Below, in pieces: positions 13,705-63,654 of a DNA stretch of 64,000 bases. Below the pieces are notes generated by a model. The model saw nothing but the letters and a program-made list of their open reading frames with translations, was not told where the DNA came from and ran no database searches. The DNA comes from Octopus vulgaris (lineage: Eukaryota). Location of the stretch: positions 185,752,001 through 185,816,000 of the forward strand of contig OX597815.1 in assembly GCA_951406725.2 (NCBI GenBank), in the 5' to 3' direction. Within the stretch, counting starts at the first letter, position 1. Every line of letters starts with the position of its first letter. The position numbers and the translations under genes are program-made.

Positions 13705-13794
13705 TTTCGGCTGATGAGTACGGGTCACTTATATTTACTGCAATATTTGCAGCCTTAATAAAGCTGGTCTTCGTACGAAACAATTGTACCGAAA
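13705..13794 (+). ncRNA. Type-I hammerhead ribozyme, canonical core (Penelope-like pLTR)
   Basis: tttcgg CTGATGA gtacg[49 nt]cgtac GAAAC aatt GTA ccgaaa: 6-bp stem I, stem II gtacg/cgtac, palindromic stem III acaattgt, GUA cleavage triplet. Confidence 0.9.
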
Positions 13795-14319
13795 TATTGA
13801 TCCATTTTTGTTGCTTTTTTCTTGTATATATCTCTTATTATAAAAGGCAGATTTTATCTGCCTCCCTTTGTCACTTATAGAAATCTACAATATAGGATTT
13901 CTTCAATTACAATTTACCTAGCATTTTTAAGAGTAGAATGCATCGGGTCATGCCAGGTCCAGTTTTTAAAATTTAAACTCCAATTAAGCAAAATTTACAG
14001 AAAACTCACATTCTGGTGTGTATGTCAAATGCTTTTCTTAGTCTGGTTTACAGCACATGCAAACGCACACACACAGTGTGCAACGAATAAAGTGAAACTA
14101 ATTCACTGCGTGTGTGTTGACAGGTAGACAATAGAATGCGATGGCGATGGCGATGTAATATTTGTTTCTGTCTATCACGCTGATAGATACATGAGTAATA
14201 TGTATGGCAAGCTAAGAGATAAGAGTGAGTGAAAATGTTCTTGGAAGAGAGTAAATAGCGAGAGTGATTTGAGGAAGACTTTACATTAAATAACCGTAGT
14301 GGCTTGTATATATATATAT

Positions 14320-14592
14320 ATACATACATAAGACAGTAAGGTGTGATTTGAGGGAGATTTGGCTGCTATTTCTACCATGTCTAGCTGCCATGTAGGGGTC
14401 TCCCTCATGGGCTCATACATACATATATACATAGATAAGACAGTAAGGTGTGATTTGGGGGAAATTTGGCTGCTATTTCTACCAGGTCTAGCTACCATGT
14501 AGAGGTCCCCCTCATTGGCTCATATATATATACATACATAAGACAGTAAGGTGTGATTTGAGGGAGATTTGGCTGCTGTTTCTACCAGGTCT
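14320..14592 (+). repeat. Tandem trimer of a ~105-bp unit
   Basis: taagacagtaaggtgtgatttgagggagatttggctgctatttctacc occurs three times. Confidence 0.85.
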
Positions 14593-14965
14593 GTTAGGCC
14601 TTCTCATGTAAACTCAAGCTTTCTCATGCCTTGAACATAAGACCAAAGCAGAGAATGTATTCTTTTATTCTTCTGCTTTTTCCAGCCATTGGTCTGTGGC
14701 CATGCTGGGGCAATGCCTTGAAGAATTGTAGTTTAATGAATCAACTCCAGTTTTATTTTTGTAAGCATTGTACTTATTCTATCTGTTTCCTTTGTCAAAC
14801 CACTAGGTGACAGGGATGTAAACAAACCAACATTCGTTATCAAGCAGTGGTGGAGGACAATCACAAGCACAGACACGCACACACACACATACATGCATAC
14901 ACATATACACACATACATACATACATACATATATATATATGTGTGTATATATATATTGCAGTGTG

Positions 14966-15204
14966 GAAGGTGTTTGTAAGCCATTTAAGAAACACACAAA
15001 AACCGTTAGATTCACTTCAACATTTAAATTTAATTTGCCAAAATATTTTCCTCGCTTTGAGACCGCGACCTGTTCACTGACAAAAATATCGTGCTAACAG
15101 GTCGCGGTCTCAAAGCGACGAAAATATTTTGACAAATTAAATTTAAATGTTGAAGTGAATCTAACGGTTTTTGTGTGTTTCTTAAATGGCTTATAAACAC
15201 CTTC
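14966..15204. mobile_element. Penelope-like fold-back (inverted pLTR pair) with a variant HHR
   Basis: Arms 14966-15074 and 15096-15204 are near-perfect inverted copies with a 21-nt spacer, embedded in (TA)n. Confidence 0.8.
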
Positions 15205-15286
15205 AACGTTGCAACTGTTTTCGTTCCAGCACACGATCTCAGATCAAGTCACTTGCTATGCAAGTACATCTCTGTAACTATATATA

Positions 15287-15333
<47 letters not shown>

Positions 15334-15396
15334 TGGTAAAAACAGTAAGATAACAAAAGAAAGAAAGAGACCTCAATATTATGTAAATAGAGGAAA

Positions 15397-15791
15397 TCTT
15401 TATATATAAAAGTGAGGTTGTGTGTCTGTCTCCTACGATTTAGATTCCTAACTACTCCCACATTTTGCGGTGCAGTTTAACCAAAACCGGGTATCTTATA
15501 GTCGTGATTCATATCGAGACTGTCTGGGTATTAGCGCGCGTCTACGATGAGTCTACGATTTAAAAAAAAATTTACCATCAATTTTTCCCATTTTTAATCC
15601 ATTTTTGACATATATAAGGGAAGTAACTCTCTAAAATTTATTATTAAATCTCAGAACGTAAAAAGCTACAGTAACACCCCTCCCCCTTTGTGGTTAGCCA
15701 TATTGAGATGGCTATTATACTTTACATCTTTAAAAATGCTTATATAATTATTTCCCTTACAAACCCGAGCAACGCCGGGCGATACTGCTAG
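15397..15791 (+). mobile_element. Non-autonomous Helitron
   Basis: A|TCtttatatataaaa 5' end; subterminal hairpin cccgagcaacgccggg (15764-15779); CTAG|T 3' end; no TSD. Confidence 0.8.
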
Positions 15792-16255
15792 TATATATAT
15801 AAAATACAGTGTACATTTAAACACATTAAGAGGTATCCATCATAGGACTCTCTTACGCTAGAAGGGACAGCTAAAGTCCAAACCACTAATTAGGGATAAA
15901 ATCTCGAAGGGAATAAGAACATTTACCATCTATTTCCTGGACCATGGTTTCAGACTTTTTTTAGCAAATAAAATAATTTGCGTGGTGGATTTGAAAAATT
16001 AAAATGTATAAGCAATAGGTACATGCTGGATTTGCCATGTGCTTGTATGTTTTATCTAGGTGTACCTGTTGACGAAGACTTCGCCTAGTCTGATCGGGCA
16101 GTGTTTCTACAGCTGGATGCCCTTCCTAACACCAACCACTCTGTGAGTGTAGTAGGTGCTTTTTATGCACCACCGGCACAGGGGCCAGAGGAGCTGGCAT
16201 CAACCACGATCGGATGGTGATTTTTACATGCCACCAGCACAGAAGCCAGTCAAAT

Positions 16256-16306
<51 letters not shown>

Positions 16307-17136: not shown

Positions 17137-17167
<31 letters not shown>

Positions 17168-18511: not shown

Positions 18512-18555
<44 letters not shown>

Positions 18556-18671
18556 ATATTTCGGAATGGTCATTTTGCCAGTTTAGCCAATAAAAACACA
18601 CGCACTATATATTTGGTGTTATTTTGCTTCAGTGTTATTTATTTTTTACATTAATCTTAATCATATTTCGG

Positions 18672-18711
18672 CCAGAGTTCTTTCGTCACACTCCTGTGAC
18701 CGCATCAGTGG
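18672..18711 (-). ncRNA. HHR-like motif with a CUGAUGC core
   Basis: Minus strand: cca CTGATGC g gtcac aggagt gtgac GAAAG aa CTC tgg, inside a TA-flanked insert (18550-18790). Confidence 0.5.
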
Positions 18712-19339
18712 TCCTTTGTTTTCTTCTTTCTTATTTGTGTCTCTCCTTACTAACCGTCAGCCATTTTGTATTTCTCTTGTATGTCTTCATTTATATATAT
18801 ATATATATATATAACAAATATAAGGGTAAATAATTATTAATTTAATAATTAATAAATTTACCAAGTAGTTTGGTATGGAAAGAGAACCATTATCGGTAGA
18901 AACTTTTACAAAAAGTTTTTTTTTTATATATAAATATAATTAAGGGTTAAGCAACAAGGACAGTGAGAACAAACAATGAGGGCTGTTAAGTGAAGACGAT
19001 GGAAAAATTATTCTGAATGCTTAAGGAGACGAGCTTATGACGAGTTTAGTCTTTGCGGAGGTAGTAGTCAGAAAGATAGATTCGCTCTCGTCACATGTCA
19101 GCGACGAGAGAGTCGAGGAGGAGGAGTGAGAAAGAGGGATCGGTGAAGGGAAGAGGAGAAGAATACTTCTTCTTTACTATCTCTTCTCTGTCTATCTCAT
19201 TCCCTCTCTTGTTCTTCATCCTTTCCGGGTTTTCTCTCCCACCCTTCCCTATTCTTCTCCTATTCTTTGACGGGCATGCTAATGCTTCAGCCAACTCGCT
19301 CTTTCAACAATTTGCATTTGCCAAACGTAAAATTTTTTA

Positions 19340-23202: not shown

Positions 23203-24640
23203 ATGGTGACATATACCCTAACTCAAGGGTAGTATTTGAGGCTGTAATATTTCAAGGTCATACCTATATTTCCTGTCCTTTCACTTCACATCTTTGCCAC
23301 CAGTGATGCACCCCATTTTTTCCCCCTGCCTCCTCCTCACTCATGGCCTTCCATCTTTCTTCTCTCCACCATTTAAGCTTATGCTTGTTCCATTATCCAT
23401 ATGTTATTCATTCCGAAAAATACTTCATAAGTACCAAATATTAGACTATTTCCTGCTAAGAGTTAAACTAAACGAATATGACAGCCATTATGTCATTTGC
23501 TTAATGTTAACGTTAAATGCATTTAAATATATACATCTGTATGTATGTATATTTTATCATCATCTTCATTTTATGTATGCTTTCTATGTTAGCATCATCA
23601 TCATCATAATAATCATTGTTCATTCATTTTCCTATAAAGTGTCTTGCCATGTTGTAGCTTTCACCTTTTCTGTGTATTGCTTTTTCTGTCTGCCTACTTT
23701 GCTGGTCCTTCCAATATGGATGTCCTGGCACTTCTTTAGCAGTCAGACATCATCCAAACCTATTTATCCATCTATCCACCTACCTACCTACCTACCTATA
23801 CACATACACAGTGTGCGATGGGTAAATTGTCATTCTATATTTTTAATTTCGTGTCACAGTAGAGTAGAGTCAGTTGGGCACACTGTCTGTGAGAAAAACA
23901 GTACCATAATACAATTCACTCCGCTAGAAATTTAGAAACAACATGCTGTACTGCTTGGCATTTGTGCCAGAAACTCTAATACAATCATTTCAGAGTGTCT
24001 GGGTGTCAATCTGAGGACAATGTACCGAGAGTGATAAAAATCAAATGTCCAATCAACATCATGGCATTTGGAGTGATCAGTAGTGATGGCGACGTTATGC
24101 CTCCTTTCATCTTCCCACACAGCCTCAGACTTAACAAGAAGGCCTGCATCAAGTGCTGGATGAGGTAGTGCTGCCCTGGGTCAAGAGGGTGGCTGCCGGA
24201 AGACCCTAGGTCTCGCAACAGGACTCTGCACCATGCCACACAAGCAGCAGAACCCAGTCATGGCTGTCAGACAATTTCTGCAACCACATCATCCCTAACA
24301 TCTGGCCACCTAACTCCCCAGATTGCAACCTCCTTGGTTATTATGTATGGGGTACAAATGAGAAAGTGACCAACAAAACCCCTTGTAACACCAAAGATGA
24401 ACTGGAGGCAAGGATTATGACAGCATTCACCAACTTAAACAAAAAGACTATACAGAAGAGTTGCAGGAGATTCCCAAATCATCTGGAGGCTGCAGTTGAA
24501 ACCAATGGGGATTTTATTGAATAAATTCACTCTTAAATATTTCAAGATATTTTTTATGTAATTTTGGTAAATATATCTGTTAAAATGAGATGTCAGTGTT
24601 GTTTTCACTTTTGTGTAATTTAGAGGACAATATATTCAAT

Positions 24641-24960
24641 TTTTTATTGTTTCTGGGTGAGGAGTCATTCTTTTTTAGTGCCTTACTAATTTAACATACT
24701 CACCAATCTGATTTCCACTCATTTACTTATTATATTTTACTAAAATTTTCGTTGCGACTTGCAACATTTTCAATAGTCATTGATTCTGTCCATTATTGGA
24801 ACTGCGTTCTTTTTGTTTTAGTAAAAAATAAGTAAATGAGTGGAAATCAGACCAGTGAGTGTGTTAAATTAATAAGGCACTAAAAGAGAATGACTCTCTC
24901 CAGACAATAAAATATGCTTCAACACACGAATTCACATAAAGAATCTTGCAAACCAAATAC
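24641..24960. mobile_element. Penelope-like fold-back inserted in the maT right end
   Basis: Inverted arms at ~24641-24745 and 24815-24912. The same family occurs at 40760-40950. Confidence 0.75.
24739..24777 (-). ncRNA. Minimal HHR, U3-A8 core variant
   Basis: Minus strand: acta TTGAAAA t gttgc aagtc gcaac GAAAA TTT tagt. Confidence 0.65.
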
Positions 24961-26668: not shown

Positions 26669-26914
26669 CAGTTCTGTATATGGGCCTATGGCATAGTAGT
26701 TAAGAGCATGGGCTACTAACCCCAAGATTTTGAGTTCTATTCCAAGCAGTGACCTTAACAATAATAATAATAACATCGAAAAATACATTAGGAATGAGAA
26801 CCCAGGTTTGAAATTTCCCCAAGACACCTGAAGAAGGCTGGAGGGTATATCAGCCGAAATGTTGTGTTAACAACTAACAAGATGAGGACAAATATCCGTC
26901 AAACGTAAATAATG
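26669..26914 (+). mobile_element. Family D: tRNA-headed element carrying an HHR
   Basis: Short inverted tail cagttctgtat; head gggcctatggcatagtagttaag...gagttctattcc; (aat)n; HHR at 26823-26868; TSD taaaagttcctata (26655-26668 / 26915-26928). Confidence 0.8.
26823..26868 (+). ncRNA. Minimal HHR of family D
   Basis: gacac CTGAAGA a ggctg gagggtatat cagcc GAAAT GTT gtgtt. Confidence 0.75.
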
Positions 26915-27452
26915 TAAAAGTTCCTATATTTGAGACCCCTTCCACTCACACATCTGTTCCCCTCAACGTCCTGATGAGGAAAGAGGCTGTTCAAATGCCT
27001 CACTCCTTGATGTGACATCAGTTCTCCTCACTTCTGACCCCTAATCTCACCCTTCCTCCTACACTTGGAAGCAACACCTCCCTTCATTCCTTCACAGTTC
27101 TCTTAGCATTTCTAGTTTTCTACAACTAATTAGCAATTTTATACATGTTGTAATTATTCTTCCTTCTGTGTTTCATTAACGAGGTCACAACACTGAAACA
27201 ACGTCTAAGGTTGTCTCCTGAATTAACGAAATCAATTAAAAAAAAATATTTAATGACATATTGTTTTCCTCCTCACAATGTAATTCTTTAAAGTTCCTTT
27301 CCGAAACGTTAACATAGCTGATGGTGGAATGCAGGTGAGACTGGAGAATATCAGGATTCTTAGAGGAATCATTCAGGTGATATAGTGCGTATACAGATGC
27401 AACTGCAGATCTAAGCAATCTATGCCAGCAGCATGGAAACGCTTAATGCAGT

Positions 27453-27485
27453 AATGATGATGATGATGATGATGATGACACTGCT

Positions 27486-27516
<31 letters not shown>

Positions 27517-28201
27517 ATGATGGCACTTGTTGCTGCTGCTGATGATGATGGTGACACTTGCTGCTGCTGATGATGATGATGGTGACACTGCTGTTGCTGC
27601 TGCTGCTGATGATGATGTTGGAGACACTGCTGCTGATGATGATGACACTTGTTGCTGCTGATAATGAGGATAATGGTGACACTGTTGTTGCTGCTGCTGC
27701 TGATGATGATGATGGTGACACTGCTGCTGCTGCTGCTGATGATGATGGTGACACTGCTGCTGCTGCTGCTGCTGATGATGATGACACTTGTTGCTGCTGA
27801 TAATGAGGATAATGGTGACACTGTTGTTGCTGCTGCTGCTGCTGATGATGATGGTGACACTGCTGCTGCTGATGATGATGATGGTGACACTGCTGCTGCT
27901 GCTGCTGATGATGATGGTGACACTGCTGCTGCTGCTGATGATGATGATGGTGACACTGCTGCTGCTGCTGCTGATGATGATGATGATGACACTTGCTGCT
28001 GCTGCTGATGATGATGATGATGACACTTGCTGCTGCTGATAATGAGGATAATGGTGACACTGTTGTTGCTGCTGCTGCTGATGATGATGGTGACACTGCT
28101 GCTGCTGCTGCTGATGATGATGGTGACACTGCTGCTGCTGCTGCTGATGATGATGATGGTGACACTGTTGCTGCTGCTGATGATGATGATGATGACACTG
28201 T

Positions 28202-28233
<32 letters not shown>

Positions 28234-28413
28234 ACACTGCTGCTGCTGCTGATGATGATGATGGTGACACTGCTGCTGCTGCTGCTGATGATGATGATGA
28301 CACTTGTTGCTGCTGATAATGAGGATAATGGTGACACTGTTGTTGCTGCTGCTGCTGATGATGATGATGGTGACACTGCTGCTGCTGCTGATGATGATGA
28401 TGGTGACACTGCT

Positions 28414-28444
<31 letters not shown>

Positions 28445-29690
28445 ACACTTGTTGCTGCTGCTGATAATGAGGATAATGGTGACACTGTTGTTGCTGCTGC
28501 TGCTGATGATGATGATGACACTGACACTGCTGCTGCTGCTGCTGATGATGATGGTGACACTGCTGCTGCTGCTGATGATGATGATGGTGACACTGCTGCT
28601 GCTGCTGCTGATGATGATGGTGACACTTGCTGCTGCTGCTGATGATGATGATGGTGACACTGCTGCTGCTGCTGCTGATGATGATGATGACACTGTTGCT
28701 GCTCCAGCTGCTGCTGCTGATGATGATGGTGACACTTTTGTTGCTGCTGCTGCTGCTGCTGATGCTGATAGTGACACTGCTGCTGATGATGATGACACTG
28801 CTGTTGCTGCTACTGCTGATTATGATGGTGACACTGTTGCTGGTGCGGCTGCTGCTGATGATGGAGACACTACTGCTGCTGCTGATGATGATGATGGTGA
28901 CACTTGCTGCTGCTGATGATGATGATGATGACAATGTTGCTGCTGCGACTGCTGCTGATGATGGAGACACTACTGCTGCTGCTGCTGATGATGATGGTGA
29001 CACTTGCTGCTGCTGCTGATGATGATGATGACACTGTTGCTGGTGCGGCTGCTGCTGATGATGAAGACCATACTGCTGCTGCTGCTGATGATGATGGTGA
29101 CACTTGCTGCTGCTGCTGCTGATGATGATGACACTGTTGCTGGTGCGGCTGCTGCTGATGATGGAGACACTACTGCTGCTGCTGATGATGATGATGGTGA
29201 CACTTGCTGCTGCTGCTGATGATGATGATGATGACACTGTTGCTGGTGCGGCTGCTGCTGATGATGGAGACACTACTGCTGCTGCTGCTGATGATGATGG
29301 TGACACTTGCTGCTGCTGCTGCTGATGATGATGACACTGTTGCTGGTGCGGCTGCTGCTGATGATGGAGACACTACTGCTGCTGCTGATGATGATGATGG
29401 TGACACTTGCTGCTGCTGCTGATGATGATGATGACACTGTTGCTGGTGCGGCTGCTGCTGATGATGGAGACACTACTGCTGCTGCTGATGATGATGATGG
29501 TGACACTTGCTGCTGCTGCTGATGATGATGATGACACTGTTGCTGGTGCGGCTGCTGCTGATGATGGAGACACTACTGCTGCTGCTGATGATGATGATGG
29601 TGGTGACACTTGCTGCTGCTGCTGATGATGATGATGACAATGTTGCTGCTGCAACTGCTGCTGATGATGGTGGTGGTGGTGACAACAAAA
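27453..29690. repeat. Compound (GCT)n(GAT)n satellite with gacact linkers
   Basis: Unit ggtgacact(gct)n(gat)n, with a ~100-103-bp higher-order unit from ~28830 to 29620. Confidence 0.97.
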
Positions 29691-30954: not shown

Positions 30955-31790
30955 AAGGCAGCAAGCTGGCAGAATTGTTAGCATGCTGGGTGAAATGCTT
31001 TGTGGCGTTTTGTCTGTCGCCACGTTCTGAGTTCAAATTCCGCCGAGGTCGACTTTGCCTTTCGTCCTCTCAGGTTGATAAATTAAGTACCAGTTACACA
31101 CTGGGGTCGATGTAATCGACTTAATACCTATGTCTGTCCTTGTTTGTCCCCTCTGTGTTTAGCCCCTTGTGGGTAATAAAGAAATACGTATTTCGTCTGC
31201 TGCTACATTCTGAGTTCAAATTCCGCTGAGGTCGACTTTGCCTTTCATCCTTTTGGGATCAATTAGATAAGTACCAATTACACACTGGGGTCGATATAAT
31301 CTACTTAATCCGTTTGTCTGTCCTTGTTTGTCCTCTCTGTGTTTAGCCCCTTGTGGGCAATAAAGAAATAAGAATTGTTAGCACACTGGACAAAATGCTT
31401 AGTAGTATTTCGCCTGTCACTACGTTTCGAGTTCAAGTTCTGCCGAGGGCGACTTTGCCTTTCATCCTTTCAGAGTCAATAAATTAAGTACCAGTGAAAC
31501 ACTGGGACTGATGCAATTGACTAGTTCCCTCCCCCAAAATTTCAAGGCCTTGTACCTTCAGTAGAAAAGATATTAAAGTCTGCTGAAAGGCAGCGAGCTG
31601 GCAGAATTATTAACTGTGCCAGGAAAAATGCTTAATGACATTTCTTCTGACTTTACGTTCTGAGTTCAAATTCTGCCAGGGTCGACTTTACGTTTTATCC
31701 TTTCAGGGTTGATAAATTAAGTACCAGTTGAACACTGGGGTTGATATAATCAACTTATTTCCTCCTTTGAAATTGCTTGCCTTGTGTCAG
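30955..31790 (+). mobile_element. SINE family B cluster (dimer plus older copies)
   Basis: Four copies of gagttcaaattc...gactttgcctttcatccttt...aagtaccag. Confidence 0.88.
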
Positions 31791-32265
31791 AAGTTGAAAT
31801 TTATGTTCAGTCTGTTTGATTAGGGTGTAACTGGAGGCTAAGCTTTAACAGCAGCTAGCTCTACCCTAGGGTATGACAAGGACTTATCGTATTGAAATCC
31901 AAAGGAAGGACTGAACCAGCCCATCTTGATCATGTATAAAATCTTGGAATATAGAGAACAAAAATTAGAGAGCCCTCTGAAACATTTAGTCAAGCATTTA
32001 CCATTTGTGCAGCTCCACCAACTTAGACCCTTTATAATATAGGAATATAAAATATGGGAGCTTAGTTCACAGGCGATCTAAATGACTAGGTATGCTGGGT
32101 AAGTGCTGTATTGGATTACTAGGGCTCCAAGGTTGTAGCTGAGACAGTAGTTATGGAACCATTGTAGATTTCTGATATAGTAGACATAATTGTTAAAGAG
32201 AACAACAAATGTTAAGGCAAGGTAAACATCTCAAGTTGTATACAATATTATTGGAAAAATTCAAA

Positions 32266-32321
32266 GTCTTACAGTTGTTTCTGGGATATCCCAACGTATG
32301 GGATATTCCATCATCAGAGAC
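32266..32321 (-). ncRNA. Type-I HHR, canonical core
   Basis: Minus strand: gtct CTGATGA tggaatatccca tacgt tgggatatccca GAAAC aact GTA agac. Confidence 0.8.
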
Positions 32322-32410
32322 AAATAGGGAAAATGAGAAGGGTATAGATTAATGAAACGATGACACAGAGGACAGAAGAAAAGGAATAAGGAGATGAAGA
32401 AAAAGAAAAA

Positions 32411-33505: not shown

Positions 33506-33797
33506 ATATAAAAGTAAAGATCCCAGTAATGATAACGTATATGATTTGAGATGTTTGTCTTGCCTTAACATTTGTTGACCCCTTTATGAATTGTAATCTA
33601 AGAATATGAGCACATTTGACATACTGAGCCAAAAAATAATTGAAATTTCATCCTTAGTGATAAAAAGAGTACATTTCTTAAATGGCTGATTAACAAAAAG
33701 TTTATACAAGGAACACACAATTCAGAAATTTGAATTAAGAGTAGCAAGATATATTATACTGTTATGAATGAATTTGTTCAATAGCCTACAGTGACAA

Positions 33798-33838
33798 TTC
33801 CAAACATGTTTCAGTCATATTAGACCTCGTCAGTGAAA
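33798..33838 (-). ncRNA. Minimal HHR (CpG-decayed)
   Basis: Minus strand: ttca CTGACGA ggtc taatat gact GAAAC at GTT tgga; palindromic aacatgtt. Confidence 0.6.
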
Positions 33839-33929
33839 CACAGTGTAATTGCTATGGCAGCTGTCAGCTGTGGAGAGGAATATAGAAGATTTGTGTGAAT
33901 GACCACTGAGGGATACTATATAATAAAAA

Positions 33930-34812
33930 TAAGAAGCATGATCTTCGAACTTTGAGCTCGCGGAGGCAATGACTAGTGACCGAGACCTTTGGCAATATGC
34001 TGTGCTTGTGAAGACCTGTCAAGCCAAGTAAAATTGAAGTCATGGCTGAAGCTGGTGTCACGAAACTGGCACTTGTGTTGGTGACATATAAAGAGCACCT
34101 TTCGAGCATTTGGCTTCATGGAGGCCAAGTGGCTGAGTTCCTTTTCAATGTTGGGTCTCAGGGAGGCCAAGTGGCTGAGTTACTTTTGAGTGTTGGGTCT
34201 CACGGAGGCCAAGTGGCTGAGTTCCTTTTGAGCTTTGGGTCTCAGGGATGCCAAGTGACTGAGTTCCTTTTGAGCATTGGGTCTCAAGGAGGCCAAGTGG
34301 CTGAGTTCCTTTTGAGTGTTGGGTCTCAGGGAGGCCAAGTGGCTGAGTTCCTTTTGAGTGTTGGGTCTCAGGGAGGCCAAGTGGCTGAGTTCCTTTTGAG
34401 CTTTGAGTCTCAGGGACGCCAAGTGACTGAGATTCTTTTGAGCATTGGGTCTCAAGGAGGCCAAGTGGCTGAGTTCCTTTTGAGCATAGTGTCTCAGGGA
34501 GGCCAAGTGGCTGAGTTCCTTTTGAGTGTTGGGCCTCACAGAGGCAATGACCAAGACTTTTGGTATTATGTTATGCTTGAGAAGAAGACCCCCCCGCTTC
34601 AAGCCGAGCAAAATCGTAGTTGTAGCAAATACTGGTGTCATGTAAACAGCACCTATTACACTCTCAGAGTGGTTGGCATTAGGAAGGGCATCCAGCTGTA
34701 GAAAACCATGCAAACTCAGACTGGAGTCTGGTGCAGCTTTCCAGCCCTGGTTAAACTGTCCAACCCATGCCAGCATAAACAACAGATGTTAAATGATGAT
34801 GATGATGATGAT
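33930..34812 (+). mobile_element. RTE-type LINE 3' end running into the family C tail
   Basis: KHDLRTL..EAMTSDRDLWQYAVL-like ORF end, then family C sequence and (gat)n. Confidence 0.75.
34120..34545 (+). repeat. 42-bp minisatellite, 10 copies
   Basis: ggaggccaagtggctgagttccttttgagtgttgggtctcag repeated contiguously. Confidence 0.95.
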
Positions 34813-39412: not shown

Positions 39413-41638
39413 CACACACACGCACACACACACACACACTCTCTCTCACTTTCTCCCCATTCATCACCCTCTTGTACTATCTTATATACCTCCCCACCAC
39501 TACACACTCAATAAACACTATAAAAATAGTCAAATTTTCCCCAAGAACTTAGTTCAATTTGAAAACTTCACTAGAACAGACGAAAGTGCTAATATATGAT
39601 ATATGATGTATAAAAGCATGTAATATACAAATAAATATCTCTAAATATAATAGCATCCGAATTTCTGAGTACCTCATTTCTTCTAATATATATATACATA
39701 TATAGACAGGCTTCTTTCAGTTTCTGTCTACCAAATCTACTCACAAGGCTTTGGTCAGCCTGAGGCTATAGTAGAAGACACTTGCCCAAGGTGCCATGCA
39801 GTGGGAATGAACCTAGAACCATGTGGTTGGGAAGAAAACTTCTTACCACACAGCCACTCAATATTAAAACATATCACTAAATTATAAAACTAAGTCTAAA
39901 TGGTTGTACCACAACTAATTGTAAAATCTACAGCTAAATTGTAAAAAAAAAAAAAAAGAAGCTTAATGGAAGTGTAAGTTTCTTGTTTTATTCTTTGCCT
40001 TATGGATTGCATTGCTTTTCAGCATCATTTTGGCAATGCTACAGAAGTAAATTCTGGCATCACACCAACTGTATATTTACACAACCTATGCTGTATATGC
40101 CAATTCTGAAGATGTCATTCATTTCTATTGGCCATATTTTCTTATAGTCTAAGAACTTGAAAAATATGTTCCCAAAATTAACACAACACAGAGTAATTTG
40201 ACTTTCCAATAAGTATGTTGGCATCTTTCAATGAAGCACCTTTGATGGTTTGTGTATCTGAAGATATTTATTTTATTTTTTATGATATAATATACGAATA
40301 ATAACATCACTAGTTCCAGGTTTCCAACAGAATAATTTGTAAGGCACTGCGTTTCTGATAATGGGAGTCTTTGTAACTAGGTGTAGAGCAAATATCTCAA
40401 TGGACTTTGTTTGTAAAGCATCGGCCTTCATAAAGAGGTTCTAATCACACAAGGTGGATGGAACTCATGGAAGTGGGGTACCCAGGAAGACATGTGCCAA
40501 AATAGTGAAGGACAATTTCAGGACACTGAACCTTACAGAAGAGATGACAAAGGACCGAGGTATCTGGTGCTTTGTTGTAGTCAAGAAGACCCACCCTCCA
40601 CAGCAGAAGTATTAATGTCACTCCACCTTCCCAGATGAAGTGGATTGGCATTTTGTTGATCAGGAGAAAGAGAGAGACTACTGATGCAAACACATACACA
40701 CACACACAGGGGAAGAAAACATAAATATTGCCTGGAAGATATAGTAAAGAAAACCCAGAGTCAAGACTATTGAAAAGGTTGCAAGACACAACAAAAATTT
40801 TAGGAAAATAAAAATAAGAAATAAGTGGAAATTTTATCGGTGAGTGTGTTACATTATAAGGCACAAAAAGAAAATGACTCTCCTCAGACACAACAGAATA
40901 TGCTTCAACATACCAACTCATATAAAGAATTTTGCAAACCAAATCCAAAAATAAAAGTACTGACATCAACATTTGGGAAAATCAGGTATTAAAAAAACAT
41001 CAGAGAAGACATTTGATCGTCAGTGCTGTCAATGAGTTTGAGACTCAGGACATTGAATATATTTAATTGAAAGTTGCTGCATGAGAATTGCAGGTTTTGA
41101 AACAATTTCCAGAAAAGGGGTTCACAGCAAACCCTACTTTGTTCTGTTAGGCATTGAGCATCTTAAATAGGTTCCATTAATAATGGATGGTATCGTGCTG
41201 CATGTGATGTTGAACACCAATATAATATTTTGGTTGCTTTGTATCATCTTTGTGGAACAAATTTCTGTTGTTGGGCTAAAATGTGAGTCAAACTTTTTTT
41301 TTAATATAATATACATATATGTACACACAATAGGATTGCATGCAGTTACCACCAGCCAAGTAACAAGGCTGAGTAACTTGACTAAGGTTTCATGCCATTA
41401 GACTGAACCTGAAACCTCACTGCTTTATCTGTACCCAAATCCACTCACAATGCTTTGGTCGGCCCAACACTATAGTAGAAGACACTTGCCCAAGGTGCCA
41501 TGCAGTGGGACTGAACCCAGAACCATGTGGTTCATAAGCAAGCTACTTACCACAAAGCCACTCCTGTGCCTTCCATGATAGCTTAAATATGATGGCTTTT
41601 GTGAACCTAGCTATTTGCATTTTCCTGGAACAATTTTT

Positions 41639-43502: not shown

Positions 43503-43692
43503 ATTATTTACATTATTTACATTTGACGGATGTTTGTCCTCATCTTGTTTGTTGTTAACATGTTTCGGCTAATATACCCTCCAGCCTTCACACCAGGTGT
43601 CTTGGGGAAATTTCTAATCTGGGTTCTCATTCCTAAGGTATTTTGCGATGTTATTATTATTCAGGTCACTACTTTGAATAATAATAATGATG

Positions 43693-43768
<76 letters not shown>

Positions 43769-43963
43769 CAACAACAACAACAACAACAACATTGAAAAAT
43801 ACCTTAGGAACGAGAACCCAGGTTCGAAATTTCCCCAAGACACCTGATGAAGGCTGGAGGGTATATCAAGCGAAACATTGTGTTAACAACAAGCAATATG
43901 AGGACAAATATCCATCAAATGTAAATAATGTAAATAGTTCTTCATCTCTTAAATACAGAACTG
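43503..43963. mobile_element. Family D fold-back around (AAT)n(AAC)n
   Basis: The left arm ~43503-43675 is the inverse of the right arm ~43780-43935. HHR at 43839-43884 (+), with a degenerate copy at ~43555-43602 (-). Flanks are taaggt(a/g)ttat. Confidence 0.85.
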
Positions 43964-46626: not shown

Positions 46627-47037
46627 CAGTTCTATATTCAAGAGATGAGGAATTATTTACATTATTTACATTTGATGGGTATTTGTCCTCATCTTGTTTG
46701 TAGCTAACATAACATTTCAGCTGATATACCCTCCAGTCTTCAAATCATTATTATGGCATAGTGGTTAAGAACATGAGCTACTAACCCCAAGATTCCGAGT
46801 TCAATTCCAGACAATGAACTGAATAATAATAATAATGCTCTTTACTCTTTTACTTGTTTCAGTCATTTGACTGCGACCATGCTGGAGCACCGCCTTTAGT
46901 CGAGCAAATCGCCCCTGGGACTTATTCTTTGTAAGCCCAGTACTTATTCTATCGGTCTCTTTTGCTGAACCGCTAAGTGACGGGGCCGTAAACACACCAG
47001 CATCGGTTGTCAAGCAATGCTAGGGGGACAAACACAA

Positions 47038-47286: not shown

Positions 47287-47439
47287 TCATCAAAAAATAT
47301 CTTAGGAATGAGAACCCAGGTTCAAAATTTCTCCAAGACATCTGATGAAAGCTGGAGGGTATGTCAGCCAAAACATTGTGTTAACAACAAACAAGATGAG
47401 GACAAATATCCGTCAAATGTAAATAATGTAAATAGTGTG
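46627..47439 (+). mobile_element. Family D: inverted tail + tRNA head + (AAT)n + HHR, with a SINE A nested in the AAT tract
   Basis: Inverted 3' piece 46627-46742; head 46753-46810; SINE A 46838-47246(-); decayed HHR 47337-47382; TSD gatggaactta (46616-46626 / 47440-47450). Confidence 0.82.
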
Positions 47440-50342: not shown

Positions 50343-50522
50343 TAATAATAATAATAATAATAACATCAGCAAAAAATACCTTAGGAATTAGAATCCAGGG
50401 TTGGGTTCAAAATTCCACCTGGACACCTGATGAAGGCTGGAGAGTAAATCAGCTGAAACATTGTGGTAACAACAAACAAGATGAGGATACATATCCGTCC
50501 AATGTAAATAACGTAAATAATG
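50343..50522 (+). mobile_element. Family D 3' part with HHR (50422-50467)
   Basis: (aat)n...gacac CTGATGA a ggctg gagagtaaat cagct GAAAC att gtggt. Confidence 0.75.
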
Positions 50523-53969: not shown

Positions 53970-54729
53970 GTAAAACAATTTTTAATCCTCGGATTTTTTA
54001 AAAATATACTAAGCCACTGATTTTAATTGATTAATATTAATTTCTACCCTTATTTAATTTTATATATATATACATATATATATACACACACACGATGGGA
54101 TTCTTTCAGTTTCTGTCTACCAAATCCACTCACGAGGCTTTGGTTGGTCCGAGGCTATAGTAGAAGACACTTGCCCAAGGTGCCACACAGTGGAACTGAA
54201 CCCAGAATCATGTGGTTTGTAAGCAAGCTACTTACCACACAGCCACTCTTGTGCCTATATGTATATCTTACTTGTTTCAGTTGTAAGACTGCTCCCATAC
54301 AAGGACGCCACCTTCAAGAATTTTAGCTGAACAAATTGACCCCAGTGCATTTTTTAAGCCTGATACCTATTCTATCAATCTCCTTTGCCAAACCACTAAG
54401 TTACTGGGATGTAAACACACCAACACCGGTTGTCAAGTGTCACACACATGTTTAGATTAATCGTGTATCATCTCATAGCTTCACCATTTTGAGGATGGGA
54501 TTGTTTATTGTAGGGTAGAATGAGAAACCAGTTCTGACTGGTTTCAACATAAACCAGTTAGGATATTTGAGCCATATATGCCTAGTTTAAATTCTAAAGG
54601 GTTAAATGGATATATGCATGTATATTTATATGAATTTGTATGTGTGTGTATATATATATATATATTTATTGTACGTACACTTTTAGTCTCCTGTATGTAG
54701 GTACATATGTATGTATGTATGTATATATA

Positions 54730-54930
54730 CTTTATTTAAAAGCAGCAGAAATATAACAAAAGCTGTTACTCAGAGTTTCACTTTCCCGTTCGTCGAACGA
54801 TCAGGAACGTGAAACTGAGTAACAGCTTTTGTTATATTTCTGCTGCTTTTAAATAAAGCATATTACTCTACCTCTGGTATTTGAGTAGTCTTTTTTCCAC
54901 CTTGTTTCACATTTATGTGCTTACTCCGGT
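54730..54930. mobile_element. Penelope-like fold-back with an HHR remnant
   Basis: Arms 54730-54781 and 54809-54858; the minus strand has cgacga...gaaactctgagtaacag; TA flanks. Confidence 0.7.
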
Positions 54931-56132: not shown

Positions 56133-56413
56133 TCTGTAAATGTAATTTGTGACAATTATTCGGTAGCCATGATACAACTCAAAGTTTCGGATGCCAAGGT
56201 GGAAATCCACGCTGCCATCTCTTCAGTTATCCAGCCATCGGGAAAAATGCTATGAAAATGACTGTTATACAAAGGGAATAACAGTCATTTTCATAGCATT
56301 TTTCCTGATGGCCAGATAACTGAAGAGATGGCGGCATGAATTTCCACCCTGGCATCCAAAACTCAGAGTTTTATCGTGGCTACCGAATAATTGTCACATA
56401 TTACATTTACAGA
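56133..56413. mobile_element. Penelope-like fold-back with 136-bp arms and an HHR in each arm
   Basis: Arms 56133-56268 and 56278-56413. The motif gataa CTGAAGA gatg...catcc GAAAC n5 GTT (t/g)tatc occurs at 56171-56231(-) and 56315-56375(+, GAAA>AAAA). Confidence 0.8.
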
Positions 56414-56485
56414 ATGTGACCTCGTGTGTACCATTGGCGATTTTTTTCCTCTGTCTTCCCTTCTCTGGATCTTTCCTTCTCCTAT

Positions 56486-56520
56486 GTTTCCGACGAAGAG
56501 CTCCGCTCGAAACGTTAAAC
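56486..56520 (+). ncRNA. Minimal HHR, CCGACGA (U4C) core
   Basis: gttt CCGACGA a gagc tcc gctc GAAAC GTT aaac. Confidence 0.65.
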
Positions 56521-57612
56521 CCTCCTTCTTCCCTTCTTTCCTGAGCGTCCAATAATACTATATTTGTTCCACGTCCTCACGTGTTGTGTTTTTTGTGCTT
56601 TCTTGTTTGGATTAACTATATATATATATATATGTGTGTGTGTACGTATGTATGTGTATGTTTGTGTGTCTGTGTTTACGTCCCCATAACTTAGCAGTTC
56701 AGCTTAAGAGACCAATACAATAAGTATTAGGGTTACAAAGAATAAATCTTCAGCTTGATTTGTTCAACTAAATACGGTGCTCCATCATGGCCACAGTCAA
56801 GCGACTGAAACAAACAAAATAATAAAAGAATTAGGAAGATGAAAGCTTTCTTCATTCTGAGAACGTTGAGCTTATAACCCCAACCAAATGGTTGTGGTTA
56901 TTAATTTAAATGTCTTACAATACAATATTCAGTTGTGTACCTCTATAAGAATCAGTGTTGGAGTCATGCAAGCTTTATTTTTGCTTTGTGTCTTATCAGG
57001 ATAATAAATATCAATCATACTGTGAGGTTGATACAATCAGTTATACTCCACACACACAATCTTTGTCTTTCTTTTTATATTTCATCCTCACTTTGTGTTA
57101 AAGCCAAACTAAAGCTAATTCAAAATGAAATCAAAATAAACTAATATTGTCCAAATTTTCAGTATTCTTCTTCTTGTCATCACCATTATTGTTATTGGTG
57201 TTGTTGCTAGCAGTAGTCGCTGTGGAATTATCACTGCTGTTGTCATCATTGCTTAGCCTCAGGTCATCCCAGATCAAACAGACCTCTGATCAAAGTCATT
57301 CCAGCTGTGCTACTCTCACCATTTAACTTCAAACGAATATCCAGAACTATATCTCCCTGTGTGACCTCTTTTCCTTTATGATGGCAATATATGATTTAAG
57401 AAGATTTTTGGGTGTTATTTCTAGCATACTGAGTGAGCATGTGGAAGCTCCATTGTAAGCATAAAATAGATGGGAAAACCGAAAACATCATCAACTAGAT
57501 TCATACCATAAATCACGAAATCTTTACAAGTTCAAAATTCTACTGAGTTTAACTACTTTACATATCAACGTTTGTAGGGATAGCAGCTTGGATCTCTATA
57601 CAGTAGGGTGTA

Positions 57613-58806: not shown

Positions 58807-59224
58807 AAGGTGGTGAGCTGGCAGAAACAGTAGCACACCGGGCGAAATGCTTAGCAGTATTTCGTCTGCCGCTACGTTCTGAGTTCAAATTCCGTCGAGG
58901 TCGACTTTGCCTTTCATCCTTTCGGGGTTGATAAATTAAGTACCAGTTATGCACTGGGGTCGATATAATCGACTTAATCCATCTGTCTGTCCTTGTTTGT
59001 CTCCTCTGTGTTTAGCCCCTTATGGGTAGTAAAGAAATAGGTATTTCGTCTGCTACTACGTTCTGAGTTCAAATTCCGCCGAGGTCGACTTTGCCTTTCA
59101 TCCTTTCAGGGTCGATAAATTAAGTACCAGTTATGCACTGGGGTCGATATAATCGACTTAATCCGTCTGTCTGTCCTTGTTTGTCTCCTCTGTGTTTAGC
59201 CCCTTGTGAGTAGTAAAGAAATAG
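58807..59224 (+). mobile_element. SINE family B dimer
   Basis: Head plus two nearly identical ~185-bp units. Confidence 0.92.
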
Positions 59225-59510
59225 ATATTACATACTTATTAAGTATAAAGTTTGATTTGAACTAAGACTTTCTAAGAGAAAATGTTGTTTAAGTAATAGA
59301 TATTTATGAGAGGCTGTGCAAAAGCTGATAGGAAATACACAGATCTTGTATAACTTGTTATGTTTTCTTTTTATATTCTATTGATGAGTAACCCCCAATG
59401 AATTCTGTAAAGCAGAGCAAGGCCTCAGATGCTTTTAATCAATCACTTGTAGTTAAAACAGAGATGCATGATACTGGTTGTGTAGTCCTGTCTAGAATTT
59501 TCTTTTGCAT

Positions 59511-59707: not shown

Positions 59708-59750
<43 letters not shown>

Positions 59751-60739: not shown

Positions 60740-61137
60740 CTCTTTTACTTGTTTCAGTCATTTGACTGTGGCCATGCTGGAGCACCGCCTTTAATCGAGC
60801 AACTCGACCCCGGGACTTATTCTTTGTAAGCCCAGTACTTATTCTATCAGTCTCTTTTTTGCCGAACCGCTAAGTGACGGGGACGTAAACACACCAGCAT
60901 CGGTTGTCAAGCGATGCTAGGGGGACAAACATAGACACACAAACACACACACATATATATATATGTACATATATACGACAGGCTTCTTTCAGTTTCTGTC
61001 TACCAAATCCACTCACAAGGCATTGGTCGGCCCGGGGCTATAGCAGAAGACACTTGCCCAAGATGCCACGCAGTGGGACTGAACCCGGAACCATGTGGTT
61101 GGTTAGCAAGCTACTTACCACACAGCCACTCCTGCGT
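60740..61137 (-). mobile_element. SINE family A (young copy)
   Basis: CpGs retained; full length. Confidence 0.92.
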
Positions 61138-61139
61138 CT

Positions 61140-61410
61140 CATACCATATACTCATACCAATAATAATTGGAGCTCTTGGTTTTGTTAGTCAATGCTTAAA
61201 GGAGAATCTGGATAAACTGGGATTTTCAGAAAAAGAAACTGTCCGGTTGATTCGTAGATTACAAGTGCAATCTGTAAGTGGAACAGTAAAAATATGCAAG
61301 ATTTTTCCCAAGTTCCAAATGTGAATTTGTCTGTGTTAACTACATCTCAAAGATGTATCTTTATTGGAGACCGGCTCCCTCCTAAGTGGAAAATTTATAA
61401 TAATTAAAAA
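61140..61410 (+). mobile_element. 3' end of an R4/Dong-type (restriction-like endonuclease) LINE
   Basis: LIPIIIGALGFVSQCLKENLDKLG...IRRLQVQSVSGTVKICK*, then a short UTR ending ataataattaaaaa. Confidence 0.7.
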
Positions 61411-62441
61411 TAGAAGAGACATACTAACATACATATAGTGTGTGTGTATGTGTGTGTGTACATATACACTTATTCAGACAGATAGAGAGAAAAACTAGTC
61501 TTATAAATGGACTTCTTAATGGAAAATCAAATTGAAAATAATTTAATGCCATTGATGCTGGTTAAATAAAATAATGTCTGAGGATTTCATTTCATTAAAT
61601 GGCAATTGTATTGATAGACAGGACTTTGTTCTTCATGACTTATATTTAATGAATGCCAATCAATAATCAATGTTAATCTCTGTTCACAATAATTTCCCAC
61701 TATCGTAATGTATTGAACCAATTTCTCGTGGCAGGCTGACATTTCACAGTTCCCTTTATTCTTCAATATATCTATGGTGATGCATTCAACAAAAAACCAA
61801 ACACTGAGTTGAAAAATTTCCTGGCTGGGATGTTCACTTGCATATCTTTGGATAGGAAGAAACCATAATTATGTGTGCAGCTGCTGCTACTGAAGATGAA
61901 CATCATTATTATCATGAGTATAAATTATTAAAACACTGCCAGCGCCGCCTTGACTGGATTCTGTACCGGTGGCATGTAAAAAGCACCAACCGATCGTGGC
62001 TGCTGCCAGCCTCCCCTGGCACCTGTGCCACGTAAAAAGCACCCACTACACTCATGGAGTGGTTGGCATTAGGAAGGACATCCAGCTGTAGAAGCACTGC
62101 CAGATCAGACTGGAGCCTGGTGCAGCCTCCTGGCTTCCCAGACCCCGGTTGAACCATCCAACCTGTGCTAGCAAAGAAAACGGATGTTAAACGATGATGA
62201 TGATACTGGTTATTTCATGGTGTGTTTGAAATAAAAGAAAATAATAACTGTATATGCAAACATTCATATATTACTCTAAATATATACGAGTAGGTGTATC
62301 TTGTGGTTTAAGCTCTCATTGGACCCAATGATTGAGAGAGAAACCTAACAGAACCATGGTGCAGAACTGTATTGATAATCGTTCGGAATTCTCAGTAATT
62401 TTCGGTCAGCCATTGCAAGAACCATGAATCACATCTGTTTT

Positions 62442-62674
62442 GGGCAGTGAGCTGGCAGAATCATTAGCATGCTGGGCAAAATGCTTAGCGGTATTTCGTC
62501 TGTCTTTACGTTCTGAGTTCAAATTCCACCAAGGTCGACTTTGCCTTTCATCCTTTCGGGGTCGATAAATTAAGTACCAGTTACGCACTGGGGTCGCTGA
62601 AATTGACTTAATCCGTTTGTCTGTCCTTGTTTGTCCCCTTTATGTTTAGCCCCTTGTGGGCAATAAAGAAATAA
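62442..62674 (+). mobile_element. SINE family B monomer
   Basis: 16-bp TSD gaatcacatctgtttt (62426-62441 / 62675-62690). Confidence 0.93.
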
Positions 62675-62854
62675 GAATCACATCTGTTTTTCATCTCTTC
62701 TTGCTGATGAGAAACATTTGTAAGCTTAAAAAGAACCCTTAAAAGCATCCTTAATGACTATGTGCATACACCCACACACTTTTGTATTGACTAAGACAAT
62801 CCTTAACATCATATAGGATTTGAGAATAGCTTAATGGAATTTTGAGACAATACT

Positions 62855-63200
62855 CATCATCATCGTCATCATCCAGTGTTTTAAATCCAGGTTTTGTCCC
62901 CGTTAATGGGGGTGGCCTGATCTACCTAAATGCCATAGCAACTGAGGTAGGCAGGTGCAGCCCACTCCAACCTTTGGGCTGGTTGGCTGGTGGCCATTCT
63001 CCTTTGCTATCATGAGGCTTTTTTGGAGCTGGATTTTCTCCGGGGAGGATGTCCTTGCTTATCCCCAATCTCAGTTTCTAGACAGGAGTGGTCCCAAGAC
63101 CAAGGCCTCAAACACGATTTGTAAGAAATGTGGTTGAAAACTAGCTCAGGAAGGCAAGGACGCTACTCCCTGAGACCCCTTTCGGAGCCCCACTACCTAA
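62855..63200 (-). mobile_element. Unclassified retroposon 3' segment
   Basis: GC-richer block ending in (gat)n on the minus strand, with aaggacatcc resembling the family C core. Confidence 0.35.
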
Positions 63201-63618
63201 TACTCAAACATAAAAATGATAGGGAGGCATAGAGATGAGAGTTAAGACAACTTAATTCTCTATAAAATCATATTTTTAAAAACATGTGCTAACAACTCAC
63301 CAGTATTACTAAATCATTCAGGATGAAAAGAATCAGAAAATCTTGTAAGGTTCATAGACATGAGAAGATTTAGATTTCATAAAAAGAGTAATATCAAAAT
63401 ACAGATTAAACACAAACTCAGTCATGTCTGCAATACATACATACACACACAAATACACATACATACATACATACATACATACATACATACACACACATAC
63501 ATACATATATATATATATAACGGGAAGCTTTATGAAAATAGACAAAAGACGAAGGCAGGTGGGAAACAAACAAACAATTGTATTAGTATGTGGCTCAGGA
63601 AATATAAATAAAACAAGT

Positions 63619-63654
63619 CTTTAACGTTTCGAGCCTACGCTCTTCAACAGAAAG
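63619..63654 (-). ncRNA. Minimal HHR-like motif, CUGUUGA (A6U) core
   Basis: Minus strand: cttt CTGTTGA a gagc gtag gctc GAAAC GTT aaag, in an insert abutting (TA)n at 63519. Confidence 0.6.

What the first reader, a model, noticed from the sequence alone, without database searches (positions are those of the whole stretch)
13705..63654. Dense battery of minimal hammerhead ribozymes from about nine families in 64 kb
Seen: type-I HHR-shaped motifs at 13705(+), 15034(-), 18672(-), 24739(-), 26823(+), 32266(-), 33798(-), 40766(+), 43839(+), 47337(+), 50422(+), ~54765(-), 56171(-)/56315(+), 56486(+) and 63619(-). Stems I and II differ in sequence between families yet pair, and stem III is tiny and usually palindromic (AACGUU, ACAAUUGU, AAUAUU, AACAUGUU). 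Established: palindromic stem III in PLE HHRs allows cleavage as dimers. Inference: at roughly one motif per 4-5 kb, any read-through or intronic transcript would carry many potential cleavage sites.
Basis: partly seen in the sequence, partly recalled or inferred. Interest (0 to 1): 0.75.

Follow-up and report, generated by a model that had tools for sequence, protein, structure and literature searches.

The report
Penelope retroelement hammerhead remnants, locally dense
The self-cutting-RNA motifs are real and belong to eleven repeat families, four shown and the rest likely to be broken-off ends of Penelope-like jumping genes; they are about three times denser here than the genome average, many are damaged and they likely do not cut a passing transcript, but one very abundant lineage keeps a changed catalytic letter, which would help test whether these motifs need to cut at all.

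Summary
All 16 listed sites are type I minimal hammerhead (min-HHR) motifs; a homology census finds 20, from 11 families. A structure descriptor gives 9 strong hits against 0.1-0.2 in shuffles, and family stems covary (93 of 98 pairs). They are not a dedicated battery. Four families are 3' pseudo-LTRs of protein-coding Penelope-like elements (Penelope/Poseidon-, Hydra- and Neptune-type); the rest likely are. Sixty 10-kb stretches elsewhere give 3.1 hits per 64 kb, so the window is an upper-tail peak (about 3x) of a genome-wide load of roughly 1-3 x 10^5 motifs. The 16 split 8/8 by strand, 7 have an altered core, five loci are inverted pairs, and only one family has same-strand partners (3-17 kb apart) for the dimer these ribozymes need. 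No host exon was found. Extras: a lineage with 15,420 exact motif copies fixes U at core position 6; a G3-C8 motif rides in a Helitron; one pLTR has a tRNA-like head. The scan already noted this kind of density and the tRNA head elsewhere in this genome, and an A6U family in another. Known kind, large scale; cleavage untested.

The parts
13196..13831 (+). Family B: 3' end (about 636 bp) of a young Hydra-clade Penelope-like element, inserted in (TA)n
   Evidence: 87-94% over this span, 93-98% over its last 373 bp, to relatives; five other elements carry the GIY-YIG ORF about 1.1 kb upstream on the same strand
13705..13794 (+). Family B type I HHR: intact core, G10.1-C11.1, long stem II, palindromic stem III; predicted cut after 13788; the only fully canonical copy
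   Evidence: core identical to family majority in 26 of 29 copies
13831..15791 (+). Young non-autonomous Helitron-like carrier (5' TC, 3' hairpin and CTAG, A/T target) holding the family C inverted pair as cargo
   Evidence: 24 of 24 fetched relatives share the element at about 95-98%; ends
15035..15083 (-). Family C min-HHR, G3-C8 covariant core, extra nucleotide after A9; this arm has G.G at 10.1-11.1; inverted repeat 14956-15214, partner arm (15096-15145 +) lacks the start of the core
   Evidence: G3 23 of 24, C8 24 of 24
18669..18714 (-). Family D min-HHR with C at position 9 (family-wide), element about 18548-18793
   Evidence: C9 in 26 of 29 similarity-picked copies; GIY-YIG ORF upstream on the same strand in 5 of 19 loci
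24737..24779 (-). Family E min-HHR, U3-A8 covariant core, intact; inside inverted repeat 24639-24915
26683..26918 (+). Family A pseudo-LTR of a Penelope/Poseidon-type element: tRNA-like head with A and B boxes (about 26683-26760), (AAT)n, min-HHR 26823-26868 (core intact, stem III AUGU), tail
   Evidence: family A sequence downstream of the RT/EN ORF on the same strand in 29 of 30 ORF-picked loci; A box 47 of 70, B box 37 of 70, relaxed ARAGORN hits in some copies
32264..32323 (-). Family F HHR, core intact, U-A at 10.1-11.1, palindrome broken; element about 32150-32385
   Evidence: Hydra-like EN upstream in 1 of 19 loci
33797..33839 (-). Family G min-HHR, core intact, palindromic ACAUGU; old family, relatives match almost only over the motif
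40764..40806 (+). Family E copy, G12 changed to A; element 40756-40951
43533..43606 (-).
43839..43884 (+). Family A copy, core intact, stem II and palindrome broken
46681..46742 (-).
47337..47382 (+). Family A copy, G12 changed to A
50422..50467 (+). Family A copy, core intact, palindrome broken (ACAU)
54725..54863 (.). Family K inverted pair; minus arm (54761-54802) has an altered core start, broken stems I and II; plus arm truncated
56133..56413 (.). Family H inverted pair: 56226- (core intact, extra C before G12, first stem I pair broken) and 56320+ (G12 changed to A)
56484..56522 (+). Family I min-HHR with C at position 4, palindrome ACGU; element about 56420-56625
63617..63656 (-). Family J min-HHR with U at position 6 (lineage-wide), palindrome ACGU; 3' end (about 63518-63780) of a Neptune-type element
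   Evidence: 15,420 exact genome matches to the 29-nt pattern, U6 in 98 of the first 100 listed; same-family GIY-YIG ORF upstream on the same strand in 12 of 24 loci

Best explanation
The motifs are minimal type I hammerheads in eleven dispersed repeat families, four shown and the rest likely to be the 3' pseudo-LTR ends of Penelope-like retroelements, and the cluster is likely a chance local pile-up of independent, decaying insertions rather than a working set of cleavage sites. How it works: in a full tandem element two same-family pLTRs lie a few kb apart on one RNA, and the palindromic stem III would let them fold as a double hammerhead to process the element's RNA (inferred from PMC4209133 and PMC6765202; not tested here). 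Reverse transcription starts at the 3' end and usually stops early, so most new copies are only the pLTR, often with a second inverted truncated copy, in (TA)n or (AAT)n (architecture shown; mechanism inferred). Such solo or inverted copies have no partner, are predicted to fold sense on antisense when inverted, and drift (CpG decay shown). One pair was spread secondarily as cargo of a Helitron-like DNA element (shown by shared ends).
For: Real structure. PLE origin: family A downstream of an RT(YVDD)/GIY-YIG(CCHH) ORF in 29 of 30 loci; family B with a Hydra-type ORF in five elements; J in 12 of 24 and D in 5 of 19 loci. Inverted truncated pairs at five window loci and in many relatives. Background: 29 hits in 600 kb (3.1 per 64 kb; shuffles 0-3 per 600 kb), 5 hits in 130 kb of flanks, Poisson P(>=9)=0.005, about 200 such windows expected among 43,750. 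Decay: in family A the core diverges like other non-CpG sites (43 of 1265 vs 624 of 15540, p=0.33) and CpG sites much faster (233 of 1038). With 200-nt flanks stem I probability is <=0.16 in 16 of 16.
Against: No ORF link found for families C, G, I, K; only 1-2 loci for E, F, H (I and K were not searched genome-wide). Core positions are better conserved than other sites in families B (p=0.012), E (0.022), G (0.03) and J (1e-11), not in A, C, D, F, H, I; this may reflect constraint on source elements or alignment seeding, but selection on inserted copies is not excluded. The window is 3x above average. Equilibrium folding of 450-nt pieces understates co-transcriptional folding (even the intact B motif scores 0). 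No activity or transcription data.
Confidence: 0.85

Rival explanations
1. A functional battery: the locus collects or retains ribozymes so that a read-through or intronic RNA is cut at many sites (terminator or silencing role).
For: 3x enrichment over genome and flanks; 9 of 16 cores intact; five copies have intact core and mostly intact stems (13711+, 26828+, 24773-, 32317-, 33833-); four same-strand family A copies, two of which (AUGU, ACAU) have mutually complementary stem III strands; retrozymes are depleted from Xenopus introns, suggesting such motifs can matter (bioRxiv 10.64898/2026.07.22.740005).
Against: 8+/8- strand split; no same-family partner for 10 of 11 families; family A partners 3-24 kb apart and damaged; neutral-looking decay in A; min-HHR monomers inactive and dimers weak in vitro; no exon found; about 200 equally dense windows expected by chance.
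Confidence: 0.06
2. Several families (C, E, G, H, I, K) are independent non-autonomous elements (retrozyme- or SINE-like) that are copied as short RNAs by PLE enzymes rather than truncated ends of coding elements.
For: Short, fairly uniform lengths of 140-300 bp and thousands of candidates; few or no adjacent ORFs; family A has a tRNA-like head that could make solo copies self-transcribing.
Against: No tandem arrays of HHR-bearing units in the window; A, B, D, J looked equally short until ORF-bearing copies were found; loci held only 1.5 kb of flank. This rival changes the label, not the verdict on the cluster.
Confidence: 0.3
3. Chance matches of a short consensus in AT-rich repetitive DNA.
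For: Rfam finds nothing significant; weak descriptor hits (score <8.5, e.g. 58131-, 41081+, 10502+) do occur at shuffle-like rates.
Against: 9 vs 0.1-0.2 strong hits; unscored features (palindrome, G10.1-C11.1) appear; family majorities repair the motif where the window copy is broken.
Confidence: 0.01

Closest known systems
Minimal type I hammerheads (min-HHRs) in pLTRs of metazoan Penelope-like elements (Cervera and de la Pena 2014, PMC4209133; read parts 1-2 of 4)
   Same: Type I topology, short stem I, extra nucleotide between 9 and 10.1 (6 of 11 families), G10.1-C11.1, palindromic 15.2-16.2 and loop 3, U3-A8 covariant, many families per genome, mostly solo copies, inverted pairs 100-700 bp apart.
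   Different: Scale: about 0.9-1.9 x 10^5 strong descriptor hits and about 2.7 x 10^5 homology-defined motifs extrapolated for this genome, against about 2,000 + 1,300 (Schistosoma), 4,000 (coelacanth) and 9,000 (Xenopus) reported with a stricter descriptor. Family-fixed G3-C8, U6 and C9 cores are not mentioned in the parts read; the supplement was not seen.
Hydra-clade C-terminal EN+ PLEs (Craig et al. 2021, PMC8557442; passages and section 11)
   Same: Family B parent: DKT motif, CxCX5C linker, CxxC and CxH around the EN E and N residues, no CCHH, (TA)n target, canonical HHR.
   Different: An Asn-rich stretch lies between RT and linker and the 3' non-coding part is about 1.1 kb; RWK motif not checked; no tree built.
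Penelope/Poseidon and Neptune PLEs (same paper)
   Same: Family A parent has RT, C-terminal GIY-YIG with CCHH and no Zn linker; family J parent has a CX4CxxC linker and CCHH; both leave inverted 5'-truncated pairs with a short tail.
   Different: Family A pLTR starts with a tRNA-like A/B-box head; family J fixes U6.
Animal non-LTR retrozymes (bioRxiv 10.64898/2026.07.22.740005, part 1 of 5 and passages; PMC7229834, search listing only)
   Same: Non-coding, type I HHR, PLE-derived.
   Different: Retrozymes are head-to-tail tandems with two or more HHRs; the window's motifs are solo or inverted.
Natural core variants A6C (phage Bcep176) and U4C (viroid) (PMC3088659 section 8; PMC7151607 passages)
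   Same: A change at a conserved core position tolerated in nature, with low Mg2+ activity.
   Different: Here U6, C9 and recurrent C4 occur in high-copy animal retroelement lineages; activity unknown.

Membership tests
Type I hammerhead ribozyme | Core CUGANGA...GAAA...UH (3-8 Watson-Crick pair) | tested here: met
   Met in 9 of 11 family references except D (C9) and J (U6), K mixed U4/C4; met in 9 of 16 window copies
Type I hammerhead ribozyme | Stems I and II pair and covary | tested here: met
   93 of 98 pairs, 3-4 pair types per position
Type I hammerhead ribozyme | Match to Rfam hammerhead models above gathering score | tested here: not met
   best HH9 16 bits vs 52
Type I hammerhead ribozyme | Self-cleavage after H17 | not testable with these tools
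   no assay; laid runs were contigs only
PLE min-HHR | Palindromic tiny stem III allowing dimer | tested here: met
   8 of 11 families perfect; D, H, K have central mismatches; 7 of 16 window copies
PLE min-HHR | Located in pLTR downstream of an RT + GIY-YIG ORF | tested here: met
   A 29 of 30, B five elements, J 12 of 24, D 5 of 19
PLE min-HHR | Same, families C, E, F, G, H, I, K | tested here: inconclusive
   E 1 of 24, F 1 of 19, H 2 of 19, C 0 of 24 and G 0 of 19 attributable; I and K not searched
PLE insertions | Inverted 5'-truncated copy and microsatellite target | tested here: met
Hydra clade (family B parent) | DKT, CxCX5C linker, CxxC/CxH, no CCHH, (TA)n target | tested here: met
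   ORF pieces against PMC8557442 section 11; GIY-YIG E=0.0016, below Pfam cut-off
Hydra clade (family B parent) | RWK motif; placement on an RT tree | not tested
   not done
Non-LTR retrozyme | Head-to-tail tandem of two or more HHR-bearing units | tested here: not met
   none in the window
tRNA-derived SINE (family A) | A/B-box head | tested here: met
   no Rfam tRNA match, none by default ARAGORN
tRNA-derived SINE (family A) | Independent of a coding element | tested here: not met
   the head itself follows the ORF in 24 of 30 ORF-picked loci
Non-autonomous Helitron (carrier of family C) | 5' TC, 3' hairpin then CTRR, A/T target, fixed ends | tested here: met
   the defining end features are recalled, not from a call

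The most novel reading that the evidence does not exclude
This genome holds the largest known natural library of hammerhead variants (10^5 motifs, dozens of families), and in it whole Penelope lineages have kept transposing with 'forbidden' cores: family J fixed U6 across several diverged subfamilies while the free positions 7 and 17 turned over and the rest of the core, stem II and palindrome stayed; family D fixed C9. Either these are new working (slow, dimer- or metal-dependent) hammerhead cores, or what PLEs select for is the dimer fold and not the cut, which would answer the open question of what the pLTR hammerhead is for.
Probability: 0.3. Interest if true: 0.6.

Novelty: new member of a known kind. 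Interest (0 to 1): 0.33.

Why it matters
The cluster itself is ordinary for this genome. What is useful is the scale and the natural variants: about one hammerhead-derived motif per 10 kb genome-wide allows a strand-bias test in introns of whether PLE hammerheads cut in vivo, and matched A6/U6 and A9/C9 subfamilies give ready constructs for asking whether cleavage matters to Penelope transposition, a question stated as unclear in PMC8557442. It also shows that Rfam-based annotation misses these motifs altogether.

Tried and rejected
Rfam scans: no useful hammerhead match. The repeat finder was swamped by the TA array. A first strict descriptor without the extra nucleotide or 3-8 covariation found only 3-4 of the sites. 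Weak candidates 58131-, 41081+, 10502+, 35109+, 26100- rejected: scores <=7.2, within shuffle range; 58131 and 41081 had no relatives in the loci then held. Family A as a stand-alone HHR-SINE: rejected. PLE ORF remnants inside the window: none with 9 baits. Host gene: 145 of 149 unmasked ORFs >=58 aa from window and flanks scanned (4 left out were pieces of the LINE RT already identified; ORFs of the flanking Helitron were excluded beforehand), one LINE endonuclease hit, no host domain. The family K row (768 rows) is contaminated by simple repeats and was dropped, as was the pooled total; the H and D regex counts include unrelated matches and were not used. Lunse et al. 2017 (PMC5785218) is not held; only its title was seen in a reference list. 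Literature searches for an octopus or cephalopod survey, tRNA-headed PLE/HHR, G3-C8, A6U and Helitron-borne HHR listed nothing describing these; that library lacks most subscription papers.


Full report
Setting. The window is G000:C2:185752001-185816000 of a 2.8-Gb animal genome, 38% GC and rich in microsatellites and SINE-like repeats; at least 62% is masked as repeat by the loci fetched. The kind of animal is likely an octopus (inference from size and recalled repeat types; earlier scan notes say the same). For context, an octopus repeat survey reports PLE expansion and 31 recently active PLE families and never mentions ribozymes (PMC13282606, part 1 of 3 and term search); a giant squid paper reports 235 Rfam hammerheads (PMC6962438, passages).

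1. Observation. A type I descriptor allowing a zero-length loop 3, one extra nucleotide after A9, any Watson-Crick 3-8 pair and one core mismatch gives 9 hits at score >=10. Three sets of 150 dinucleotide shuffles give means of 0.11-0.19 and never more than 2; the reversed window gives none. The descriptor was written with these motifs in view, so I also scored without stem III on 60 other stretches: 16 hits, 7 with perfect palindromes and 9 with G10.1-C11.1, against 3 hits with neither in 12 shuffled sets. A homology census finds 20 motifs of 11 families (A-K), including all 16 listed. Across families 93 of 98 stem pairs form, with 3-4 pair types at each position, and the 3-8 pair appears as C-G, U-A (family E) and G-C (family C). 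Rfam misses them.

2. What the families are. Each motif sits in a dispersed repeat with hundreds to thousands of first-look candidates (G only 20). [quoted passage not shown] Family A: in 29 of 30 loci picked by a Penelope/Poseidon-type ORF fragment, family A sequence follows on the same strand, mostly 230-270 bp downstream; 24 include the tRNA-like head, 19 the ribozyme part. I first took A for a SINE; an earlier scan note (e1-8669850) said otherwise and the test agreed. Family J: 12 of 24 loci have a 92-100% identical Neptune-type EN upstream. Family D: 5 of 19, two with the full inverted-pLTR layout. E, F, H: 1-2 loci each; C, G none; I, K not searched. The window holds no PLE ORF. Family C is a special case: its inverted pair lies inside a 1.96-kb element (13831-15791) shared at about 95-98% by 24 of 24 relatives, with TC and hairpin-CTAG ends typical of Helitrons (end rules recalled); most carriers share the same two damaged arms, so the motif spread as passive DNA cargo, while intact G3-C8 copies of a sister subfamily occur free.

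3. Is the density special? Sixty evenly placed 10-kb stretches give 29 hits at score >=10 (shuffles 0-3), or 3.1 per 64 kb, with near-Poisson dispersion; 130 kb of flanks give 5. P(>=9) is 0.005 (0.04 at the upper confidence limit), so about 200 windows of this genome would reach 9 by chance. By homology the 11 families give 20 here, 6.2 per 64 kb in the sample and 7.4 in the flanks (biased towards the window, which defined the families). Extrapolated: 0.9-1.9 x 10^5 strong hits, or about 2.7 x 10^5 motifs of these families including broken ones. One 29-nt family J pattern alone has 15,420 exact matches, reversed control 0. Published counts with a stricter descriptor are 3,300 (Schistosoma), 4,000 and 9,000 (PMC4209133).

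4. Would a transcript be cut? The 16 split 8 plus, 8 minus. Cores are altered in 7 (A12 three times, C4, U6, C9, and the K copy); of the 9 intact, one has G.G at 10.1-11.1, one a broken stem II, one a broken first pair of stem I; only 13711+ is fully canonical. Five loci are inverted pairs; with 200-nt flanks stem I probability is <=0.16 for all 16, and the C, H and K pairs fold into long hairpins (prediction; equilibrium folding understates co-transcriptional folding). A double hammerhead needs a same-strand partner with a compatible stem I (established; PMC4209133, PMC6765202 passages); only family A has such copies, 17.0, 3.5 and 3.1 kb apart, three of four damaged. Min-HHRs were inactive as monomers and weak as dimers in vitro. 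In family A the core diverges like other non-CpG sites (3.4% vs 4.0%, p=0.33), CpG sites at 22%. Against this reading, cores are better kept than other sites in B, E, G and J (p 0.012, 0.022, 0.03, 1e-11), not in C, D, F, H, I; constraint on source elements is my explanation, untested. No host exon was detected; a long intron is not excluded. RNA data gave nothing usable.

5. The odd part. Family J has U at position 6 in 98 of the first 100 listed matches and in 15 of 16 copies not picked by similarity. Among 61 aligned copies C3 and A13-A15.1 are invariant while positions 7 (T30, C16, A11) and 17 (T33, A26) vary. On a tree of 29 copies position 7 tracks subfamilies (7 changes vs 14.5 shuffled, 0 of 200 as low; most branches weakly supported; those rows were picked by exact motif match). 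Young ORF-bearing copies carry U6. Family D has C9 in 26 of 29, in both pLTRs of ORF-bearing copies. C4 recurs in F (12 of 25), H (6 of 32), I (7 of 33), K (5 of 11). Natural A6C and U4C hammerheads are known and slow (PMC3088659 section 8, PMC7151607 passages); searches for natural G3-C8 and A6U listed no description, but the supplement of PMC4209133 and Lunse et al. 2017, which I could not read, may list them. The scan noted an A6U family in another genome (e1-9559914, not checked).

6. Verdict. Observation confirmed; interpretation partly supported. These are new members of a known kind, PLE min-HHRs, piled up about threefold above a high genome-wide background, likely inert where they lie (confidence 0.85). 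The same kind of cluster was noted elsewhere in this genome by the scan (e1-8663237). Interest 0.33; the most novel open reading (lineage-fixed non-canonical cores that work, or selection on fold without cutting) has probability 0.3 and would deserve 0.6.

Noticed in passing
window 13831-15791: Young non-autonomous Helitron-like element carrying an inverted hammerhead pair, a 107-bp tandem repeat and SINE pieces; the Hydra-clade end abuts its 5' end in the same TA run. A DNA transposon spreading ribozyme motifs as cargo.
   Followed up: partly
window 26683-26760 and family A copies: tRNA-like head (A and B boxes, anticodon-like loop) at the start of a Penelope/Poseidon pLTR; possible Pol III promoter.
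   Followed up: partly
window 33797-33839; L137-L155: Family G relatives match almost only over the 45-55-nt motif, flanks unalignable: a very old family or many families sharing one motif.
   Followed up: partly
window 26828+ with 43844+ or 50427+: CpG decay on opposite strands left AUGU and ACAU stem III strands that are complementary to each other.
   Followed up: no
window 32390-33337 (+): 315-codon LINE reverse transcriptase fragment (RVT_1 E=2.4e-17) directly abutting the family F element.
   Followed up: partly
window 27454-29672: 2.2-kb array of mixed ATG/CTG triplets with a 33-bp higher-order unit.
   Followed up: no
window 94-1803; 34098-34545; 4626-5062, 7109-7507, 31025-31370, 58857-59229: 1.7-kb TA-rich array, a 42-bp minisatellite, and four 184-bp tandem SINE-like arrays.
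   Followed up: no
L165:2372-7513 (about 23-28 kb before the window): Near-complete Helitron Rep/helicase reading frames (recognised by recalled motifs).
   Followed up: no
L033, L034, L041, L046, L047, L049, L053, L068, L069, L072, L080, L087, L088, L169: At least a dozen further hammerhead families absent from the window, several with long stem II and 8-12-nt palindromes, some as inverted pairs.
   Followed up: no
L158:4487-7351: A second Hydra-type element (468-codon RT stretch, own HHR) directly behind a family B pLTR: two PLE families nested.
   Followed up: no
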